A stretch of 64,000 nucleotides of DNA from an uncultured Anaerolineales bacterium. Its GTDB lineage: Bacteria > Chloroflexota > Anaerolineae > B4-G1. Location: contig CAZGSX010000003.1 in the NCBI GenBank assembly GCA_964528475.1, positions 1,681 to 65,680 of the forward strand, in the 5' to 3' direction. Below, piece after piece: positions 17,927 to 48,998 of this stretch. Under the pieces are notes generated by a model. The model did not search any database and was not told the DNA's origin. It was given only the letters and a program-made list of their open reading frames with translations. Position 1 is the first letter of the stretch. Each line of letters opens with the position of its first letter. The position numbers and the translations under genes were made by a program.

Positions 17927-19399
17927 CTATGCAGACTGGATTCCGGATATCGGAAGAGCGTAGCGGACCGTGAGTCCTCCTCCGGGCGTCTCCTCGGCCC
18001 ACATCCGCCCCCCGTGCGCTTCCACAATGTGACGGGCAATGGAGAGCCCTAACCCACTCCCTCCAGTTGCCTGGCGGCGACCCGGATCACCACGCCAGAA
18101 GCGCTCGAATAGATGTGGCAACTGGTCAGGCGATACCCCCGGGCCGTCATCGATCACGGAGATGACGGTCTCTGTGCCTTCCCGCAGAGCTTCCACCCTG
18201 ATGCTTCCGCCCCGAGGGACATAGTGTAGGGAATTGGTGAGCAGGTTCCCCATTACCTGGGCCAGCCGGTCCCGGTCGGCGAAGACAGTGGGCAGAGCAG
18301 TCCTTGTCTCCAGGGCCAGGGCAACCCCTTGCTCTTGAGCCGCGGGCTGATACGCCTCCACAATGCCCTTGAGAAAGGCCTGGAGGTTCACACTGTCCCG
18401 CGCCAGCTGCAGCTTCCCGGCATCGGCGAGAGCCAGGATGCGCAAATCCTCAATCAAGCGGGCGAGTGTCCGGGTTTGAATGAGCGCTGACTCCAGATTC
18501 TCACGATCAGTAGGATAGATCTCGTCCAGCATAGCCTCCAATGTGCCCTGGAGAACAGTGAGAGGGGTGCGCAGCTCGTGAGCAATGTCAGCCGTCTGAC
18601 TACGGCGGGCTTCCTCTATGCGGTGAAGGCTCTCCGCCATTTCATTGAAGGACTCCGCGAGCTGCGCGACTTCGTCCTGTCCCCCAACCTCTGCCCGGAC
18701 CGAGAGATCGCCCTGCGCGATGGCCTCGCTGGCAGCTGTCAGCTCTCGCAGAGGAGCGGTGATCGAACGAAACAGCAGCCCCCCGATGATGAGCGCAACG
18801 CCCATGGCCACAGCCCCTCCTATCCAGAGATTCCTTCGGACGCGAGAGAGAAAGGCCGCTTGGGCAGGATCCAGGGGCCAGTCGGGCTGGGCTCTGAGCG
18901 CCGGGAGTAGGTAGCCCACAACCTCCCCGCCCACTTCGATGGGAACCCCCTCATCGACGTCAACCGGCGAGACCACCCCGCCGGGGAGGCCTTGAGTGTC
19001 CGCGACGACCTGCCCCTGCGGCTCTGCAACCCGGAACTCCAACACAGTTGGCGGACCACCCGGGCCGCCAGAATCCCTGCTCCGCCAGCGGTGCCACGGA
19101 CTGTGCCGCTCCTCGAGGGTGTTCTGAAGTCCTTCCCAGGAGCCACGCACCTCATAGTAGTCAGCCAGCTGAGTCGTCAACTCCTCCCATGCGCCACTGC
19201 GGGTCACTGCGTACCGCCGGAAGGCGCTCTCGGTGGCGCGGCCCGTCAGTATCGAGACAGTTCCCACGGCGACGAGGATGACAACCAAGAAAGCTAGCAT
19301 CCCCTTGCCGAATAGACTACGCATAATCACCCCGTCCAACTGAGTCGCTGTCGCCAGCGAGGCCTTGGGATCCGTTGCCCGCGAGAGGGACCCGCGCAC
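17927..19399 (-). CDS. Sensor histidine kinase (periplasmic sensor, HAMP, HisKA, HATPase_c), OmpR-partner type
   Basis: Two TM helices flanking a ~150-aa periplasmic domain. HAMP. H-box HELRTPLTVLQGTLE. G-boxes GGSGLGLSIARHIVEAHGG. Immediately downstream of the response regulator gene. Confidence 0.9.
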   Translation of the reverse strand: MRGSLSRATDPKASLATATQLDGVIMRSLFGKGMLAFLVVILVAVGTVSILTGRATESAFRRYAVTRSGAWEELTTQLADYYEVRGSWEGLQNTLEERHSPWHRWRSRDSGGPGGPPTVLEFRVAEPQGQVVADTQGLPGGVVSPVDVDEGVPIEVGGEVVGYLLPALRAQPDWPLDPAQAAFLSRVRRNLWIGGAVAMGVALIIGGLLFRSITAPLRELTAASEAIAQGDLSVRAEVGGQDEVAQLAESFNEMAESLHRIEEARRSQTADIAHELRTPLTVLQGTLEAMLDEIYPTDRENLESALIQTRTLARLIEDLRILALADAGKLQLARDSVNLQAFLKGIVEAYQPAAQEQGVALALETRTALPTVFADRDRLAQVMGNLLTNSLHYVPRGGSIRVEALREGTETVISVIDDGPGVSPDQLPHLFERFWRGDPGRRQATGGSGLGLSIARHIVEAHGGRMWAEETPGGGLTVRYALPISGIQSA

Positions 19400-19419: not shown

Positions 19420-20121
19420 CTAGGCACTTTCCAGCTCCGGGTTCAATCGGTACCCCGCCCCGCGAACAGTGAGGACGTAACGAGGATCGGAGGGTGCGGA
19501 CTCGATCTTCTGGCGCAAGTTCTTGATATGGGCATCGACCGTGCGCTCGTAGGCCTCGAACGCCACCCCTTGCACCGCCTCGAGAATCTCCGCCCGAGAG
19601 AAGACTCGCCCCGGTCGGCCCATCAGAACCTCCAGCACATCGAACTCGGTGGGGGTCAGGTCCACTCGGTCACCCTCAACGGTCACCGTGTGGGTAGCCC
19701 GGTCCAGAGTGATCGGTCCCGCCCGCAGTACTGGAGCCGGCTCCCTGCCCTCGGAGGGCTGGGCCCGGCGCAGGACAGCGCCTACACGGGCGACAACCTC
19801 CCGAGGGCTGAAAGGCTTGGTGACATAGTCGTCAGCCCCCAGCTCCAGCCCCACAATACGGTCGGTTTCCTCAGCCCGGGCGGTGAGCATGATGATGGGA
19901 ACATCTCGCTCGCGACGAATTCGCCGAGTGAACTCGAGGCCGTCCATCTTAGGCATGAGAATGTCGAGGACGACCAGATCCGGCTGTTCGTGGCGTGCCG
20001 TGTAGAGGGCATCCTCGCCATTGTAAGCTGTAACGACGCGGTAGCCGGCCTGTTCCAGGTACGAACGTAGCAGCCGGACGATTTCCGGCTCATCATCGAC
20101 GACCAAGATTGTCTGGCTCAT
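19420..20121 (-). CDS. OmpR/PhoB-family response regulator (REC + winged-helix)
   Basis: ILVVDDEPEIVRLL...DLVVLDILMPKMDGLE receiver. C-terminal winged helix LTPTEFDVLEVLMGRPGRVFSRAEILEAV...VDAHIKNLRQKIE. Confidence 0.9.
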   Translation of the reverse strand: MSQTILVVDDEPEIVRLLRSYLEQAGYRVVTAYNGEDALYTARHEQPDLVVLDILMPKMDGLEFTRRIRRERDVPIIMLTARAEETDRIVGLELGADDYVTKPFSPREVVARVGAVLRRAQPSEGREPAPVLRAGPITLDRATHTVTVEGDRVDLTPTEFDVLEVLMGRPGRVFSRAEILEAVQGVAFEAYERTVDAHIKNLRQKIESAPSDPRYVLTVRGAGYRLNPELESA

Positions 20122-20371
20122 GGATCACCTTCCCTGCTCATCACGGTGCAAGATGGACTCAAGGTAGTATAGCGGGAACACCTCGATTCGAACAGCACCC
20201 GGACGTGCAGGGCGGCGACTGAGAAGCGTATCACCGCCTCTGCTGTGACGTGGATGGGCTCTAGATCATGCCACAAGGAACTCGCCCCACGGTCTCTGCT
20301 CCACGCAATTCCCTTCGTGTGTCCTCGCATCGCCAATCGCTGCGGATGTTCTGAGCTTCATCGTAGGATAC

Positions 20372-20410
20372 CAGCATTGCGTGAAGATTTGATGAAGGTC
20401 GGATGAAGAT
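20372..20410 (+). promoter_or_regulatory. Array of four direct hexamer repeats at exact 11-bp periodicity: putative OmpR-family response-regulator binding site upstream of the TCS operon
   Basis: TGAAGA(20372) N5 TGAAGG(20383) N5 TGAAGA(20394) N5 TGTGAT(20405). Adjacent to a minus-strand extended -10 TGGTATCCT (reverse complement of 20355-20363). Confidence 0.6.
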
Positions 20411-20843
20411 CCGATGTGATTCAGCAGATCCAGGCGGTGAGGTGCAGCGGATGTACGTCGTCGAAAGGAAGCATCGAGTGCACGCAAGGCACCATCTGGA
20501 GGCCACCGTGGAGAAGAGTGCGACTCCAACGCCCACATCACCCTCTGGCGCAAGGTTGACGTCGGATGCGGACTTTCGCGCGGACATGGCTGATGGGCCC
20601 CACTCCCTAACGTCACGACTGAGGCAGGTGCAGCACTTGATGGTGTGTGCATACCCTGCACTAAAGATCAGATTCGGATGCAGATTGAGAATCGTGGGTG
20701 GTCCGGCTGCAGGGTCACAAATAGAGGACGGTACGCGCGCTAACAACAGCTACGAGAGGGGGCGACTGGGATAGACCAAGTCATAGAATCGATGGATGTT
20801 ATTGAATGGCGTTGCGGATGATCTACAAAGCCTAGGCAAATAC

Positions 20844-20872
20844 TTGACAAACTGCCCGTTGTGTGTTATAAT
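20844..20872 (+). promoter_or_regulatory. Consensus sigma-70 promoter TTGACA-17-TATAAT upstream of fasciclin gene
   Basis: TTGACA 20844-20849, 17-bp spacer, TATAAT 20867-20872. About 150-nt 5' UTR before ATG 21024. Confidence 0.7.
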
Positions 20873-21023
20873 GTTGATAGTAAGAGTTCAGATTGAGGTT
20901 CAAAGAAGCAAGAGCTCAGATACGGGGAACGATGTGACAGCCGGGGACAGGAGGACACCAGACCCTCCCGCGGTTCAGACAAAGATCATCTGGTGATCAC
21001 ATAAAGACAGGAGAGTAGACATC

Positions 21024-21989
21024 ATGTTGAAGGCAAGAGTTGGCTTATTACTGGCGGTCGCAATGTTGGTCGCCGCGGTACCCGTGGCGTCCGCTGCTGG
21101 ACATCAGACGATCGTCGATATCGCCGTGCAGGATGGCCGATTCGAGACGTTGGTCGCTGCTGTGACGGCTGCGGATCTGGGCGGCGCTCTGTCCGGTGGG
21201 GAATGGACGGTTTTCGCTCCGACCGATGAGGCTTTCGCGAAGCTCGGGTTGAGCCCCAGCAACGTCGCGACTGCGTTTAGCAAGGACGAGCTGACGGATA
21301 TCCTGCTATACCACGTGCTCGAGGGGGAAGTCTATTCAGATAAGGCACTGGCCCTACAGGGTGACGTCACGATGGCCAACGGTCAGCGGGCTGGCCTCAA
21401 GAGCTTCCAGGGCGACATCTACGTCAACGATGACTCCAAGGTCATTATTGCGGACATCCCCGCCTCCAATGGCGTGATTCACGTAGTGGACACAGTGATT
21501 CTGGGACCATGGCCCAGGACAGGCGAGGAGTCGGATGCACCAGTGTCGGCTCCGGCAACGGGCGACACCATCGTCGACATAGCAGCAAGTGATGGGCGGT
21601 TCAGCACGTTGGTGGCAGCGGTAACAGCCACTGGCCTGGCAGACGCGCTATCCGGCGGGGAATGGACGGTGTTCGCTCCCACCGATGAGGCCTTCGCGAA
21701 GTTGGATTTGAATGCTGGCAACATCGCGCAGGCATTCAGCAAGGACGAGTTGACCGATATCCTGCTTTATCACGCCCTCCCGGTGGAGGTGTTCTCGGAT
21801 AAGGCCCTGACCCTCGTGGGCGACGTGACCATGGCTAACGGTCAGCGCGCCGGCCTGAAGAGCTTCCAGGGCGACATCTATGTCAACGATGACTCGAAGG
21901 TGATCATCCCCGACATCAACGCATCCAACGGGGTGATTCACGTCGTCGATACCGTGATTCTGCCGCCGTGGCCGCGGACCGATAAGTAA
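21024..21989 (+). CDS. Secreted protein with two tandem fasciclin (FAS1) domains
   Basis: Signal peptide. Two ~155-aa repeats each with FAS1 motifs (TLVAAVTAA..LGGALSGGEWTVFAPTDEAFAKL, DILLYHVL, SNGVIHVVDTVIL). The repeats are also about 85% identical at DNA level (21096-21560 vs 21561-21985). Confidence 0.85.
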   Translation: MLKARVGLLLAVAMLVAAVPVASAAGHQTIVDIAVQDGRFETLVAAVTAADLGGALSGGEWTVFAPTDEAFAKLGLSPSNVATAFSKDELTDILLYHVLEGEVYSDKALALQGDVTMANGQRAGLKSFQGDIYVNDDSKVIIADIPASNGVIHVVDTVILGPWPRTGEESDAPVSAPATGDTIVDIAASDGRFSTLVAAVTATGLADALSGGEWTVFAPTDEAFAKLDLNAGNIAQAFSKDELTDILLYHALPVEVFSDKALTLVGDVTMANGQRAGLKSFQGDIYVNDDSKVIIPDINASNGVIHVVDTVILPPWPRTDK

Positions 21990-22546: not shown

Positions 22547-23368
22547 CTAGCGGCCCATGCCTCGACCACGCGGGCCCTGCTGTGGTCGGGGGCGTCCCCC
22601 GCGTCCAAAGCCCTTCGCACCGGGCATGAAGCCCCGGTCCAATCCTTCCTTCATCCACTCGGCCCGGTCCTCTGACAGACGTCCCTCCTCGATCGCCTGC
22701 CTCCTGGCCTCGCTCTGAGCCGCCTCCAGGGCGTCCCGCACTGCCTCCAAGTCGACTTCTCCAGCCTCAGCAAGCTCCTCCACGCTCTTCCCACCGTGGA
22801 GTTCCTTGAAGAGCTCGACGGGCTCCATTCCCAGCGCATCGGCCACCGCATCGAATAGCCCCGTCCAGCCATCACCAAACCGACCGAGAAGACGACCTCC
22901 GAAACGCTTAGTGCCAACTATCCGCGGCTCGCAGGACCGGTTGAGCTGGTCAGCAATGCGCTGTTCTAGCTGCTCCAGCATCTCCTCTCTCTGTGCCTCG
23001 GTCAGCCGACCTGCCTGCACCGCGTCGTCCAGCCGGACCGCGTGCTCCGCCAGAGCGCTCTCAAGCAGCTCCTGGGGATCAGCGCCCTCGGCCTTGGCGA
23101 TCTCGACGAATGTGTGGCCGTCTTCGAGGGCGGCCATGACCTCCTCCTCGCTCAGCCCTGTGAGATCGGCGGTCACGCTCGCCAGGCCCTGAAAGGGCAG
23201 CGGATCGGCAAAGCGACCTCCGCCAGGGAACGGTCCCCTGCGCATAGTCTGCCAGTCACCAAACGGCGGCTGAGGGCCCCGGGCATAGGCCACGCCCACG
23301 CCCATCAGCAACGCCAAGGTACCTGCAACAATGCCCAGTACGACGTAGCGTCTCCTACCCTGAAACAT
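22547..23368 (-). CDS. Exported hypothetical protein, possible CpxP/Spy/ZraP-like (LTXXQ-motif) periplasmic stress protein with Gly/Arg-rich tail
   Basis: N-terminal TM/signal (VVLGIVAGTLALLMGVGVAYA). LTEAQREEMLEQLEQ (LTXXQ-like). Helical Glu/Ala-rich repeats. GAGGAGG RBS. Promoter carries the same 11-bp repeat array as the TCS operon. Confidence 0.5.
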   Translation of the reverse strand: MFQGRRRYVVLGIVAGTLALLMGVGVAYARGPQPPFGDWQTMRRGPFPGGGRFADPLPFQGLASVTADLTGLSEEEVMAALEDGHTFVEIAKAEGADPQELLESALAEHAVRLDDAVQAGRLTEAQREEMLEQLEQRIADQLNRSCEPRIVGTKRFGGRLLGRFGDGWTGLFDAVADALGMEPVELFKELHGGKSVEELAEAGEVDLEAVRDALEAAQSEARRQAIEEGRLSEDRAEWMKEGLDRGFMPGAKGFGRGGRPRPQQGPRGRGMGR

Positions 23369-23430
23369 ATCGCACCTCCTCGTAGACGTAATCGTAGCCT
23401 AAACGCTCCTAGTATGATACCACAATAATA

Positions 23431-23469
23431 TGAAGATCTGATGAAGAAACAGTGCAGAATCGATGCAGG
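23431..23469 (+). promoter_or_regulatory. Second array of four hexamer direct repeats at 11-bp periodicity at the promoter of 22547-23368 (minus strand)
   Basis: TGAAGA(23431) N5 TGAAGA(23442) N5 TGCAGA(23453) N5 TGCAGG(23464). Minus-strand extended -10 TGGTATCAT (reverse complement of 23413-23421) about 9 bp away, so the repeats occupy the -35 to -75 region. Confidence 0.6.
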
Positions 23470-23473
23470 TCGC

Positions 23474-23665
23474 TTAGCTCTGCGTCAATTCGCCTCGCCA
23501 TGACTCAGGGAGCCGCAGCCAGTATCCGCCGTAGCCTCCGATGTAGAAGCGCAGCTTCGTGGCATCCGGTTCCTGACGCCGCAACAGATCGCGCGAGACG
23601 CACACCGTCAGGCCATCCACGGTCTCAAAGCTTACATAGGCGTCTGGATTGTCGGGCGCGGCCAT
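23474..23665 (-). CDS. Small hypothetical protein (63 aa), uncertain
   Basis: ORF only; lies between the CDF gene and the repeat array; no recognisable motif. Confidence 0.25.
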   Translation of the reverse strand: MAAPDNPDAYVSFETVDGLTVCVSRDLLRRQEPDATKLRFYIGGYGGYWLRLPESWRGELTQS

Positions 23666-23780: not shown

Positions 23781-24713
23781 TCAGCCGTTCTCTGATTCAT
23801 GGTTGTTCCCCTGATACGGACAGATGATCGTTCCGCCAGCACAACTCTGACACTCGACCTGGATGGTGGTATGCTCGATCCCGAACTGTTCAGCGAGCGC
23901 CGCCTCCAGGCGCTCCAAGATGCTTTGAGCTTCACTGATCGACTGGTCATCAAACACTACATGAGCGCTGAGCGCGATGTATCCGGGGCTTACCGTCCAG
24001 ACGTGCAGATCGTGGACCTGGGAGACGCCGGGGACGTCATTCATGGCCTCTGCCACCTGCGTTGCTGTCAAGCCCTGTGGCACACCTTCGATGAGGATGT
24101 GAAGTGCCTTGCGAAGTACGTTCCCAGCACCCACCAGGATAATGACAGCGATGACCAAACTGATCAGCGGATCGACAATTGTCCACCCGGTCAATACGAT
24201 GATCACGCCCGCGACGATGACGCCGATCGACGCCAGCGTGTCGCCGAGGACGTGCAAGAAGGCACTGCGGACGTTGAGATCCTCATGGTCGTGTCCACGC
24301 AAGACGAACGCCACCACGAGGTTCACGATCAAGCCGATGACGGCCACGACAAGCATCGGGCCAGCTAGGATGGGTTGGGGGTTCGAAAAACGTCCGATTG
24401 CCTCACGGACTATCTCGAACACCACCAACATCAGCGTCGTACCATTCACCAGGGCTGCCAGCACCCGCAGACGATGATACCCGTACGTGTGGCGGTCATC
24501 GGGTGGGAGCGACGTGAGGCGAATGGCAACGTAGCTCAAACCGAGAGCAAATGCGTCCAAGAAGACGTGAGCGGCATCTGATAGAAGCGCCAAGCTTCCG
24601 GTGACCAGCCCGCCCACCAATTCGGCGAAGAAGATCAGCCCGGTCAACGCCAGGGAGACGATGAAGCGCCTCTCTATCCCGCCGGACCCAACATGACCAT
24701 GGCTGTGACTCAT
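23781..24713 (-). CDS. Cation diffusion facilitator (CDF) family divalent metal exporter (CzcD/ZitB-like)
   Basis: His-rich N-terminus MSHSHGHVGSGG. Six TM helices with HxxxD motifs (LLSDAAHVFLDAF; FLHVLGDTLASIG). C-terminal cytoplasmic domain with Cys/His cluster. Confidence 0.9.
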   Translation of the reverse strand: MSHSHGHVGSGGIERRFIVSLALTGLIFFAELVGGLVTGSLALLSDAAHVFLDAFALGLSYVAIRLTSLPPDDRHTYGYHRLRVLAALVNGTTLMLVVFEIVREAIGRFSNPQPILAGPMLVVAVIGLIVNLVVAFVLRGHDHEDLNVRSAFLHVLGDTLASIGVIVAGVIIVLTGWTIVDPLISLVIAVIILVGAGNVLRKALHILIEGVPQGLTATQVAEAMNDVPGVSQVHDLHVWTVSPGYIALSAHVVFDDQSISEAQSILERLEAALAEQFGIEHTTIQVECQSCAGGTIICPYQGNNHESENG

Positions 24714-48128: not shown

Positions 48129-48998
48129 CTACTCGTACCAGTCTTCAGCACTCAGAGGCATCCCGGGCTGTCCCGTCGTGATTCCGGGGCCAAGGGCCTG
48201 TCGAACGCGTTGGGCAATCAAGCTGCACGCTGGCGCCTCTCGCACGGTCTGCGTTCGGGGACGTGGCAGGTCAACGTGCACCTCCGCGATGATAGAGGCC
48301 GGGCGGGGGCCGAGCACCAGCACACGGTCCGCGAGGTAGACAGCTTCGGGCACGGAATGCGTCACCATCACCACAGTCTTCTGTCGAGCCTGCCAGATGC
48401 GGAGCAACTCCCGTCCCATGCGCTCTCGAGTCAGGGCATCCAGCGCCCCAAAGGGCTCATCTAAGAGAAGGAGCTGCGGATCGTGCACCAGGGCCCGGGC
48501 CAGCGCCACCCGTTGGGCCATGCCACCTGACAGTTGGGCCGGATACGCATCCTCGAAACCCCTCAAGCCCACCAGATCCACAAGCGCCTGCGCTTTCTCC
48601 TCAGCCCTCTCGTCCCTGACCCCGTTCACCTCCAACGGCAGTGTCACGTTCTTCCTGACCGTGCGCCACGCCATCAGCGTAGGGTCCTGGAATACGAAGC
48701 CCACGCGACGGCTGGGACGCTCAACCCTGTCGCCGTTAAGATAGATGGCCCCGGTCGTCGGCCGCTCCAGACCTGCGATCAGCCGAAGCAGTGTTGATTT
48801 CCCGCAACCGGAGGCACCGACCAGACAGACGAACTCCCTCTCCTGTACCTTAAATGAGAGGTTCTCCAGCACAGATAGACGTTCAGCGGGTCGCTGATAG
48901 GACTTCCCAACATTTTCGACAGTCAGCAGGTGGTGGTTGTCAGACACGTGATTATGGCAGGTACTCATTGGTGAAGGCTTCTTGAGGATCGACATCAC
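48129..48998 (-). CDS. ABC transporter ATP-binding protein (NitT/TauT nitrate/sulfonate/bicarbonate family)
   Basis: Walker A GASGCGKST, signature LSGGMAQRVALARAL, Walker B LLLDEPFGALD, H-loop. Confidence 0.9.
   Translation of the reverse strand: MMSILKKPSPMSTCHNHVSDNHHLLTVENVGKSYQRPAERLSVLENLSFKVQEREFVCLVGASGCGKSTLLRLIAGLERPTTGAIYLNGDRVERPSRRVGFVFQDPTLMAWRTVRKNVTLPLEVNGVRDERAEEKAQALVDLVGLRGFEDAYPAQLSGGMAQRVALARALVHDPQLLLLDEPFGALDALTRERMGRELLRIWQARQKTVVMVTHSVPEAVYLADRVLVLGPRPASIIAEVHVDLPRPRTQTVREAPACSLIAQRVRQALGPGITTGQPGMPLSAEDWYE

What the first reader, a model, noticed from the sequence alone, without database searches (positions are those of the whole stretch)
20372..20410. Four TGAAGA-like hexamers at exact 11-bp periodicity upstream of the OmpR-family two-component operon
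TGAAGA-N5-TGAAGG-N5-TGAAGA-N5-TGTGAT begins at 20372, 20383, 20394 and 20405, so each repeat is one DNA helical turn from the next. That is the canonical head-to-tail binding-site geometry of OmpR/PhoB-family regulators. The array sits about 8 bp from a minus-strand extended -10 (TGGTATCCT), which puts it on the -35 to -75 region of a promoter reading toward the regulator gene (start 20121). This implies autoregulation. It could alternatively regulate the divergent fasciclin gene.
Basis: seen in the sequence. Interest (0 to 1): 0.7.

Follow-up and report, generated by a model that had tools for sequence, protein, structure and literature searches.

The report
Response-regulator binding array at autoregulated promoter
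A row of four short DNA repeats spaced one helical turn apart is almost certainly the docking site of the neighbouring BaeR-like two-component regulator, which thereby switches on its own operon and a nearby membrane-protein gene; this is a well-supported but textbook kind of bacterial gene switch, here in an uncultured Anaerolineae bacterium.

Summary
The hexamers start at 20382, 20393, 20404 and 20415, exactly 11 bp apart. On the minus strand they read ATCACA-N5-TCTTCA-N5-CCTTCA-N5-TCTTCA, then 8 nt, then the extended -10 TGGTATCCT. A second array with identical geometry lies at 23431-23469, ahead of a 273-aa membrane-anchored protein gene. A 21-base pattern common to both sites never occurs in shuffles. 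Five other Anaerolineae genomes carry eight further arrays in the same positions, aligning without gaps. A matrix built only from those foreign sites ranks the two window sites first and second (43 and 29 bits; random maximum 3.3). Within the 902-nt intergenic region, only the array is conserved. The adjacent regulator's closest solved relative is BaeR, with a near-identical recognition helix. The half-site YCTNCA has the published BaeR core CTNCA. In relatives the array heads an efflux-pump operon that ends in the regulator and kinase genes, so the 237-nt leader here looks like a deletion scar. I conclude the array is a pho-box-like activator site that drives autoregulation. It is a new member of a known kind. 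No binding or transcript data exist.

The parts
20382..20420 (-). Array S1. Four phased half-sites read on the minus strand. From distal to proximal they are ATCACA (20420-20415), TCTTCA (20409-20404), CCTTCA (20398-20393) and TCTTCA (20387-20382). The period is exactly 11 bp, at about -62 to -24.
   Evidence: Foreign-site matrix score 43.3 bits. It is the only conserved block in the 902-nt intergenic region.
20365..20373 (-). Extended -10 element TGGTATCCT of the S1 promoter, 8 nt downstream of the proximal half-site. There is no -35 match (ATCAAA at the 17-nt position). The inferred transcription start is near 20358.
   Evidence: T1, A2 and T6 of the -10 hexamer are invariant in all 10 arrays, and so is the 8-nt spacing. 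The start site is inferred, not mapped.
20122..20357 (-). Leader of about 237 nt between the inferred start and the regulator gene. It is not conserved and is probably a scar left by loss of efflux genes that occupy this position in relatives. The ribosome-binding site GGAAGGTG lies 4 nt before the ATG.
   Evidence: no conservation; the L081 98-aa ORF is an MFP gene fragment; ORFs here lack coding signature.
19420..20121 (-). OmpR/PhoB-family response regulator (233 aa), BaeR-like, with recognition helix ERTVDAHIKNLRQKIES. It is the presumed protein that binds the arrays.
   Evidence: Pfam Response_reg + Trans_reg_C. Best solved relative is BaeR 4b09, E 4.7e-57. The helix is invariant in 7 orthologues.
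17927..19399 (-). Sensor histidine kinase (HAMP, HisKA, HATPase_c), BaeS-like, co-transcribed with the regulator. Orthologue alignments begin at residue 24-28, so the true start may be the ATG near 19324.
   Evidence: (full-length alignment to NCBIfam BaeS_SmeS, 287 bits, below the cutoff of 500).
23431..23469 (-). Array S2. Four phased half-sites read on the minus strand. From distal to proximal they are CCTGCA (23469-23464), TCTGCA (23458-23453), TCTTCA (23447-23442) and TCTTCA (23436-23431). The period is 11 bp.
   Evidence: Foreign-site matrix score 28.6 bits. Orthologous arrays precede P273 homologues in L062, L081, L083 and L084.
23414..23422 (-). Extended -10 element TGGTATCAT of the S2 promoter, 8 nt downstream of the proximal half-site. 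The inferred start is near 23407, giving a 39-nt 5' UTR with ribosome-binding site GGAGGTG.
22547..23368 (-). P273, the second predicted target gene. It has an N-terminal membrane anchor, a disordered linker, two five-helix repeats (faint DUF2680 similarity) and a Gly/Arg-rich tail. Its function is unknown.

Best explanation
The array is a cis-regulatory site made of four head-to-tail half-sites (consensus YCTNCA, with the proximal one always TCTTCA), each one helical turn (11 bp) from the next. The phosphorylated BaeR-like regulator encoded just downstream (19420-20121) binds it, most likely as two tandem dimers. The two proximal half-sites occupy about -40 to -24. They replace the missing -35 element of a minus-strand promoter that has only an extended -10 (TGGTATCCT). 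The bound regulator is therefore inferred to recruit RNA polymerase in the pho-box manner. This activates transcription of the regulator-kinase operon (positive autoregulation) and, through a second identical array at 23431-23469, of the membrane-anchored protein P273. Shown computationally: the repeat, its non-randomness, its duplication in the window, its conservation and fixed geometry across genomes, its linkage to this regulator, and the BaeR-like helix and half-site core. Inferred: actual binding, two-dimer stoichiometry, the transcription start, and activation rather than repression.
For: (1) Exact 11-bp phasing never appears in shuffles.
(2) The 21-base pattern GATACCA-N8-TGAAGAT-N2-GATGAAG occurs exactly twice in 64 kb, both times upstream of minus-strand genes, and 0 times in 100 shuffles.
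(3) Eight further arrays in five other Anaerolineae genomes (L001, L005, L062, L081/L082, L083, L084) align without gaps over 56 nt. All have the proximal TCTTCA, the 8-nt spacer and a TAYNNT -10.
(4) A matrix built from those eight sites alone scores S1 at 43.3 bits and S2 at 28.6 bits. These are the top two hits in the window, against a maximum of 3.3 in 100 random 64-kb sequences. The maximum in 1.38 Mb of non-orthologous loci is 2.5 bits.
(5) Only the array is conserved within the 902-nt intergenic region. Strain variants change only a spacer base and the degenerate fourth position of a distal hexamer.
(6) Arrays always precede either the P273 homologue or an operon that ends in the orthologous regulator and kinase.
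(7) The regulator's best solved relative is BaeR, and its helix ERTVDAHIKNLRQK resembles BaeR's DRTIDSHIKNLRRK. Published BaeR sites are TCTNCANAA and TTTTTCTCCATDATTGGC, with core CTNCA (PMC3799227).
(8) The helix is invariant in the seven orthologues that have arrays. A 46%-identical regulator (L085) has a different helix and a different upstream repeat, CTAAGA-N5-CTAAGA.
(9) PHO boxes are 11-nt units (7 conserved plus 4 less conserved) bound head to tail (PMC4415409). M. tuberculosis PhoP recognises 7-bp direct repeats with a 4-bp spacer (PMC4832192 abstract).
Against: There is no experimental evidence for binding, transcription start or induction. The simple promoter scan found no full sigma-70 promoter on the minus strand here, as expected for an activator-dependent promoter, but this leaves the start site inferred. 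About 237 nt of non-conserved leader separate the promoter from the regulator gene, so read-through into the gene is assumed. L001 has a plausible second promoter closer to its regulator gene (TTGCAA-17-TATATT, read). Two orthologous loci with upstream sequence lack a clear array. L003 has only a degenerate candidate, and L002 has no regulator gene. The regulator and kinase score below the NCBIfam BaeR and BaeS cutoffs, and RegX3 and MtrA are nearly as similar overall. Sites that overlap the -35 position can also repress.
Confidence: 0.75

Rival explanations
1. The same array binds the adjacent regulator but represses. Occupying -24 to -62 would block RNA polymerase, giving negative autoregulation.
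For: The half-sites overlap the -35 position. Some OmpR-family regulators repress from such positions (general knowledge).
Against: None of the 10 promoters has a usable -35 (ATCAAA and ATCAGA in the window), while all keep a good or extended -10. The distance from the proximal half-site to the -10 is invariant at 8 + 3 nt, the signature of activator-dependent promoters such as pho-box promoters. A repressor site would not need fixed helical register with the -10.
Confidence: 0.1
2. The array is a genuine OmpR/PhoB-type site, but a different paralogous regulator encoded elsewhere in the genome recognises it.
For: The window's genome is not fully available, and OmpR-family paralogues are numerous. 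L001, L004 and L005 each have a second regulator-kinase pair just downstream, at about 30% identity.
Against: Arrays co-occur with this orthologous regulator in every genome where they are seen, and in L005 and L062 they head the operon that contains it. The recognition helix is invariant among these orthologues and BaeR-like, matching the CTNCA core. The nearby paralogues are not conserved across loci.
Confidence: 0.08
3. The array controls the divergent fasciclin gene (21024-21989, plus strand) rather than, or in addition to, the regulator operon.
For: The fasciclin gene is the divergent neighbour in the window and in L081, L082, L084 and L088.
Against: The fasciclin gene has its own perfect TTGACA-17-TATAAT promoter with a TG extension at 20844-20872, 424 bp from the array. 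The array's orientation and distance are fixed relative to the minus-strand -10. L001 and L005 have arrays but no adjacent fasciclin gene.
Confidence: 0.05
4. The repeat is a chance tandem duplication, or the coding sequence of an overlapping ORF, with no regulatory role.
For: ORFs overlap it (20261-20746 minus, 20403-20774 plus). An automatic gene caller placed a 107-aa gene at 20449-20772.
Against: These ORFs lack the codon-position GC pattern of real genes here (GC3 0.54-0.64 against 0.70-0.73) and have no homologues beyond the array itself. The array recurs in the window and in five other genomes with fixed geometry.
Confidence: 0.01

Closest known systems
E. coli/Salmonella BaeSR envelope-stress system and its BaeR box (mdtABCD-baeSR, spy, acrD promoters)
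   Same: The regulator's best solved relative is BaeR, with a near-identical recognition helix (HIKNLR). The kinase aligns end to end with the BaeS_SmeS model. The half-site YCTNCA contains the published BaeR core CTNCA/TCTNCA (PMC3799227). In relatives (L005, L062) the site heads an efflux-pump operon that ends in the regulator and kinase genes, like mdtABCD-baeSR (PMC7657598).
   Different: Scores are below the NCBIfam BaeR and BaeS equivalog cutoffs, so this is not an orthologue by that standard. The linked pump is a MacB-type ABC transporter with two HlyD-type adaptors, not an RND/MFS pump. There are four strictly 11-bp-phased half-sites that abut the -10. The E. coli mdtA site read here has two half-sites about 10 bp apart and lies about 20 nt from the -10. 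The second target is a DUF2680-like membrane protein with no detectable fold similarity to Spy. The host is Chloroflexota (Anaerolineae), not Proteobacteria.
PhoB pho box (E. coli) and PHO boxes of other phyla
   Same: The 11-nt direct-repeat units have about 7 conserved plus 4 less-conserved bases, and the regulator's effector domains bind them head to tail (PMC4415409). The site replaces the -35 element and sits about 10-11 nt upstream of the -10 (pho-box position from my own knowledge of Makino et al. 1988 and Blanco et al. 2002). Two boxes (four units) occur at strong promoters.
   Different: The half-site is TCTTCAY rather than CTGTCAT. The regulator is below the PhoB cutoffs (245 bits against 296). 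No phosphate-uptake genes are nearby, and the kinase has a BaeS-like rather than PhoR-like architecture.
Mycobacterium tuberculosis PhoP, RegX3 and MtrA direct-repeat operators
   Same: They belong to the same family, and RegX3 and MtrA are the second and third closest solved relatives. PhoP binds 7-bp direct repeats with a 4-bp spacer as a cooperative dimer (PMC4832192).
   Different: Their recognition helices differ at the base-contacting positions (KTLDVHVKRLR and RLVNVHVQRLR against RTVDAHIKNLR), and their published motifs differ.

Membership tests
OmpR/PhoB-family response-regulator operator (tandem direct-repeat site) | Two or more direct (head-to-tail) repeats of a 6-7 bp half-site at a spacing of about 10-11 bp | tested here: met
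   Four hexamers at exactly 11 bp in S1 and S2. Ten arrays align without gaps.
OmpR/PhoB-family response-regulator operator (tandem direct-repeat site) | A cognate regulator with a receiver domain and a winged-helix Trans_reg_C domain | tested here: met
   Pfam PF00072 (1e-35) and PF00486 (3e-27) on 19420-20121. The gene is adjacent to arrays in every genome examined.
OmpR/PhoB-family response-regulator operator (tandem direct-repeat site) | Physical, phosphorylation-enhanced binding of the regulator to the repeats | not testable with these tools
   This needs EMSA, DNase footprinting or ChIP with the purified protein.
Class II (pho-box-like) activator-dependent promoter | The site overlaps or replaces the -35 element, the -10 element is kept, and the distance to the -10 is fixed | tested here: met
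   The proximal half-sites lie at about -40 to -24. The -35 position reads ATCAAA or ATCAGA. The 8-nt spacer to (T/G)GNTAYNNT is invariant in 10 of 10 arrays.
Class II (pho-box-like) activator-dependent promoter | A mapped transcription start downstream of the -10, and regulator-dependent activation | not testable with these tools
   No transcript data are available. The starts near 20358 and 23407 are inferred from the -10 position only.
BaeSR system (equivalog membership) | Regulator and kinase score above the curated NCBIfam BaeR and BaeS cutoffs | tested here: not met
   BaeR NF007982 scores 221 bits against a cutoff of 380. BaeS_SmeS NF012163 scores 287 against 500, and PRK10549 scores 262 against 603. 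The system is BaeSR-like, not a BaeSR equivalog.
BaeSR system (equivalog membership) | DNA half-site containing the BaeR core CTNCA (TCTNCANAA) | tested here: met
   Twenty-nine of the 40 hexamers in the ten arrays contain CTNCA (9 of 10 at the proximal position in the training-free sense, 10 of 10 as TCTTCA), and all 40 end in CA. The consensus is tctgCA / cTtCA / cTTCA / TCTTCA, against the literature motifs.
BaeSR system (equivalog membership) | Autoregulated operon that couples an efflux pump with the two-component genes | tested here: inconclusive
   This is present in relatives L005 and L062, with HlyD-HlyD-ABC-MacB then regulator and kinase. The pump is a different class, and it is absent from the window.
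Spy/CpxP family (for target protein P273) | Sequence or fold similarity to Spy/CpxP | tested here: not met
   No Pfam or NCBIfam hit, only faint DUF2680 at E 0.029. No PDB fold match reaches E <= 0.001.

The most novel reading that the evidence does not exclude
The arrays define a small, conserved envelope-stress or efflux regulon of Anaerolineae. Its regulator keeps the BaeR recognition helix and the CTNCA half-site across the Proteobacteria-Chloroflexota divide, through deep conservation or ancient transfer. Its principal output is a previously undescribed membrane-anchored protein with two helical repeats (P273, DUF2680-like) that plays the role Spy or CpxP plays in Proteobacteria. The pump genes have been lost repeatedly from the operon, leaving the autoregulatory promoter stranded on a long leader.
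Probability: 0.3. Interest if true: 0.45.

Novelty: new member of a known kind. Interest (0 to 1): 0.3.

Why it matters
The finding gives a concrete, testable operator, promoter architecture and two-target mini-regulon for a two-component system in Anaerolineae. This is a largely uncultured class in which almost no transcription-factor sites are known. It also suggests that BaeR-type DNA specificity (helix HIKNLR, half-site CTNCA) can be transferred between phyla for regulon prediction. It links a family of uncharacterised DUF2680-like membrane proteins to a stress or efflux response. It does not reveal a new mechanism: phased direct repeats, replacement of the -35 element and autoregulation are textbook features of OmpR/PhoB-family regulators.

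Tried and rejected
(1) Rfam scan of 19900-21200 at E <= 1 gave no RNA family, so the leader is not a known riboswitch or sRNA.

(2) I suspected P273 was Spy/CpxP-like because of its GRLTEAQ motif. There is no family hit beyond a faint DUF2680 match. The AlphaFold model (mean pLDDT 67; first repeat 93-95) has no PDB match at E <= 0.001. I rejected the idea as unsupported.

(3) I tested the intergenic ORFs as genes, including the gene caller's 107-aa call at 20449-20772. They have no codon signature and no homologues. Rejected.

(4) I looked for a MacB-type efflux operon in the window. There is none, only a generic ABC ATPase hit at 48312-48896.

(5) I searched the window for further regulon members. 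Nothing scores above noise after S1 and S2.

(6) A literature search for TCTTCA direct repeats bound by response regulators, and for DUF2680, found nothing relevant.

(7) S1 contains a 6-bp inverted repeat, TCGGAT-N4-ATCCGA (20399-20414). It is absent from the other nine arrays, so I do not consider it a palindromic operator.

I repeated it without that row.

(9) I did not use the metagenome-contig scan, because the genome and encoding-contig look-ups gave enough independent arrays.

Full report
**Observation**

The repeat is real but mis-placed by ten bases. On the plus strand, TGAAGA, TGAAGG, TGAAGA and TGTGAT start at 20382, 20393, 20404 and 20415, not at 20372, 20383, 20394 and 20405. Tandem Repeats Finder reports 20382-20416, period 11, 3.2 copies.

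The repeat is far beyond chance. Three TGAAG at period 11 occurred in none of 300 dinucleotide-preserving shuffles of the window. Any 5-mer repeated three times at period 11 is expected 0.05 times per 64 kb.

**A second array in the window**

TGAAG-N6-TGAAG occurs at only one other place in the 64 kb, at 23431. Reading that region shows the same architecture:

- S1: GATACCA-N8-TGAAGAT-N4-TGAAGG-N5-TGAAGA-N5-TGTGAT
- S2: GATACCA-N8-TGAAGAT-N4-TGAAGA-N5-TGCAGA-N5-TGCAGG

A pattern of 21 specified bases, GATACCA-N8-TGAAGAT-N2-GATGAAG, matches exactly these two sites and nothing in 100 shuffles, even with three mismatches allowed.

In the direction of transcription (minus strand) both sites have four hexamers of the form YCTNCA, then TCTTCA-N8-TGGTATC(C/A)T. 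S2 lies about 39 nt upstream of a 273-aa gene (22547-23368, minus), which has the ribosome-binding site GGAGGTG.

**Genes**

- 19420-20121 (minus) is an OmpR/PhoB-family response regulator.
- 17927-19399 (minus) is a HAMP/HisKA/HATPase kinase.
- 21024-21989 (plus) encodes a protein with two fasciclin domains.
- 23781-24713 (minus) is a cation-diffusion-facilitator transporter.

The regulator's best solved relative is E. coli BaeR (4b09, E 4.7e-57), followed by RegX3 and MtrA. The kinase aligns end to end with the NCBIfam BaeS_SmeS model. Both proteins score below the curated cutoffs, so the pair is BaeSR-like and not an equivalog.

The recognition helix reads ERTVDAHIKNLRQKIES, against DRTIDSHIKNLRRKLES in BaeR. 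RegX3 and MtrA differ at the exposed positions.

**Comparative evidence**

A genome-collection scan with the kinase returned six orthologous loci from Anaerolineae/Anaerolineales MAGs. Kinase identity is 58-72% and regulator identity 75-85%. Look-ups of P273 homologues added syntenic contigs L081-L084.

A tolerant scan required a proximal TCTTCA with at most one mismatch, plus three upstream hexamers in 11-bp phase keeping T3, C5 and A6. It found arrays only at these places:

| Locus | Array start | What follows |
|---|---|---|
| L001 | 8867 | regulator gene, 290 nt downstream |
| L005 | 791 | HlyD-HlyD-ABC-MacB/FtsX efflux operon, then the regulator and kinase |
| L062 | 1637 | P273 homologue, then the same efflux genes, GDT1, regulator and kinase |
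| L081/L082 | 4764 | P273 homologue |
| L081/L082 | 7397 | 98-aa ORF, GDT1, regulator and kinase |
| L083 | 3971 and 5575 | P273 homologue; contig end |
| L084 | 4745 | P273 homologue |

All ten arrays align without a gap over 56 nt. The consensus is tctgCAtc.aa.cTtCATcc...cTTCA..gAaTCTTCAcA..c.tc.GgTAta.T. The proximal half-site is TCTTCA in 10 of 10. The 8-nt spacer is invariant. The -10 hexamer keeps T1, A2 and T6 in all.

**Non-circular and negative tests**

A log-odds matrix built only from the eight foreign arrays ranks S1 (43.3 bits) and S2 (28.6 bits) as the two best positions in the window. The best score in 100 Markov-random 64-kb sequences was 3.3.

In 1.38 Mb of non-orthologous loci, fetched around unrelated kinases, the best score of the ten-site matrix was 2.5 bits.

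A blastn of the whole 902-nt intergenic region (20122-21023) against all orthologous loci hits only the array, at window 20376-20417. The pairwise alignment with L001 shows identity concentrated in the array and the -10.

Strain variants of the same species (L088, L089) differ only at a spacer base and at the degenerate fourth position of a distal hexamer.

ORFs overlapping the region, including a 107-aa gene called automatically at 20449-20772, lack the codon-position GC pattern of the real genes and have no homologues.

**Link to the regulator**

Three lines of evidence tie the arrays to this regulator:

1. Arrays occur only beside this orthologous regulator-kinase pair or beside P273 homologues that are syntenic with it.
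2. The helix YERTVDAH(I/V)KNLR is invariant in the seven orthologues. A 46%-identical regulator in L085 has a different helix (SLDVYIGYLR) and a different upstream repeat, CTAAGA-N5-CTAAGA. This is a single control.
3. Published BaeR sites are TTTTTCTCCATDATTGGC and TCTNCANAA, with the conserved core CTNCA (PMC3799227), which matches YCTNCA.

E. coli BaeR binds upstream of mdtABCD-baeSR (PMC7657598). The E. coli mdtA promoter read directly shows CCTCCA and TCTCCC about 10 bp apart. The core is shared, but the geometry there is looser and farther from the -10.

**Mechanism**

Taking the -10 hexamer TATCCT (20370-20365) as -12 to -7, the half-sites lie at about -29/-24, -40/-35, -51/-46 and -62/-57. 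The -35 position reads ATCAAA in S1 and ATCAGA in S2, each 3 of 6 matches to TTGACA.

PHO boxes are two 11-nt units, with seven conserved and four less-conserved bases, bound head to tail by the effector domains (PMC4415409). From my own knowledge, they sit about 10 nt upstream of the -10 and substitute for the -35.

The present arrays reproduce that layout. I therefore infer class-II-type activation by two tandem regulator dimers, with positive autoregulation through S1 and induction of P273 through S2. Repression from the same position is the main mechanistic rival. It fits poorly with the missing -35 and the invariant register to the -10.

**The long leader**

About 237 nt separate the inferred start (about 20358) from the regulator's ATG (20121; ribosome-binding site GGAAGGTG). 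This stretch is not conserved.

In L005 and L062 the array is followed by a MacB-type efflux operon, an unknown gene, GDT1 in L062, and then the regulator and kinase. In L081 only a 98-aa fragment of the first HlyD gene and GDT1 remain (tblastn 75% over 79 residues). In L001 and in the window everything between the array and the regulator is gone.

The simplest history is repeated loss of the pump genes from an ancestral array-pump-regulator-kinase operon. That leaves the autoregulatory promoter on a non-coding scar. The window has no copy of the pump.

**The fasciclin alternative**

The fasciclin gene has its own perfect TTGACA-17-TATAAT promoter with a TG extension at 20844-20872, 424 bp from the array. 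Arrays in L001 and L005 have no fasciclin neighbour. Control of fasciclin by the array is not excluded but is unlikely.

**P273**

P273 has an N-terminal membrane helix, a disordered linker, two five-helix repeats (residues 60-142 and 166-244) and a Gly/Arg-rich tail. Similarity to DUF2680 is only faint, and no solved structure matches. The idea that it is a Spy/CpxP analogue is unsupported, and its function remains unknown.

A distant DUF2680 protein (P0015, L085) is also linked to a regulator-kinase pair, a MacB-type pump and an HtrA-like protease. This is consistent with an envelope-related role.

**Verdict**

This is a new, well-defined member of a known kind: an OmpR/PhoB-family direct-repeat operator at an autoregulated, activator-dependent promoter. 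It has BaeR-like specificity and sits in an uncultured Anaerolineae lineage. All functional steps (binding, transcription start, activation) are inferred and need the experiments listed under next steps.

Noticed in passing
window 20844-20872 (+): A perfect sigma-70 consensus promoter (TTGACA, 17-nt spacer with a TG extension, TATAAT) lies about 150 nt upstream of the fasciclin gene start (21024). A 12-of-12 match is unusual in a 62% GC genome and suggests strong constitutive expression.
   Followed up: partly
window 23474-23665 (-): A small 63-aa ORF lies between the cation-efflux gene and array S2. It is conserved in syntenic loci (52-89% identity to the 59-aa genes in L081, L083 and L084), and its L084 homologue has a weak Pfam CC_Se_fam hit. 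Its stop codon is 5 nt from the distal half-site of S2.
   Followed up: partly
L081 7511-7807: The called 98-aa gene is a fragment of the first HlyD/MFP gene of the efflux operon seen in L005 and L062 (75% identity over 79 residues). It looks like a pseudogene remnant that documents loss of the pump genes.
   Followed up: yes
L002 1-3749 (same MAG as L001): A second kinase copy, 72% identical to the window's, follows the end of a MacB permease gene, a 414-aa ORF and the unknown gene X. No response-regulator gene sits in front of it. This may be a paralogous pump-linked kinase or a binning or assembly artefact.
   Followed up: partly
L085 1480-1510: A distant system combines an HtrA-like protease, regulator, kinase, MacB pump and DUF2680 protein. 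It has a different direct repeat upstream of its regulator, CTAAGA-N5-CTAAGA at 11-bp period, and a different recognition helix.
   Followed up: partly
L003 388-443: A degenerate candidate array (GATTCA-N5-TATTCA-N8-TGGTACAAT) lies upstream of a 707-aa ORF with no Pfam hit. That ORF directly precedes the regulator gene in this genome. It is unclear whether the array is functional.
   Followed up: no
window 20399-20414: Array S1 contains a 6-bp inverted repeat, TCGGAT-GAAG-ATCCGA, formed by two spacers. It is absent from the other nine arrays, so it is probably incidental.
   Followed up: yes
L001 9069-9097: A sigma-70-like promoter (TTGCAA-17-TATATT) sits within the leader, about 115 nt before the regulator gene. 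This suggests a second, possibly constitutive, promoter in that genome. The window has a TATACT at about 20166-20171 but no good -35.
   Followed up: no
window 22547-23368 (-): P273 consists of two internally repeated five-helix modules, each ending in a G-R-L-(T/S)-E motif, plus a C-terminal GRGxGxGW-type tail conserved among homologues. No solved structure resembles it.
   Followed up: partly
L001 6014-8789 (-): Divergent from the L001 array are a Trypco1-domain gene (trypsin co-occurring domain) and a 742-aa trypsin-like peptidase gene. Together with the HtrA-like protease in L085, this hints at a protease link to the regulon.
   Followed up: no
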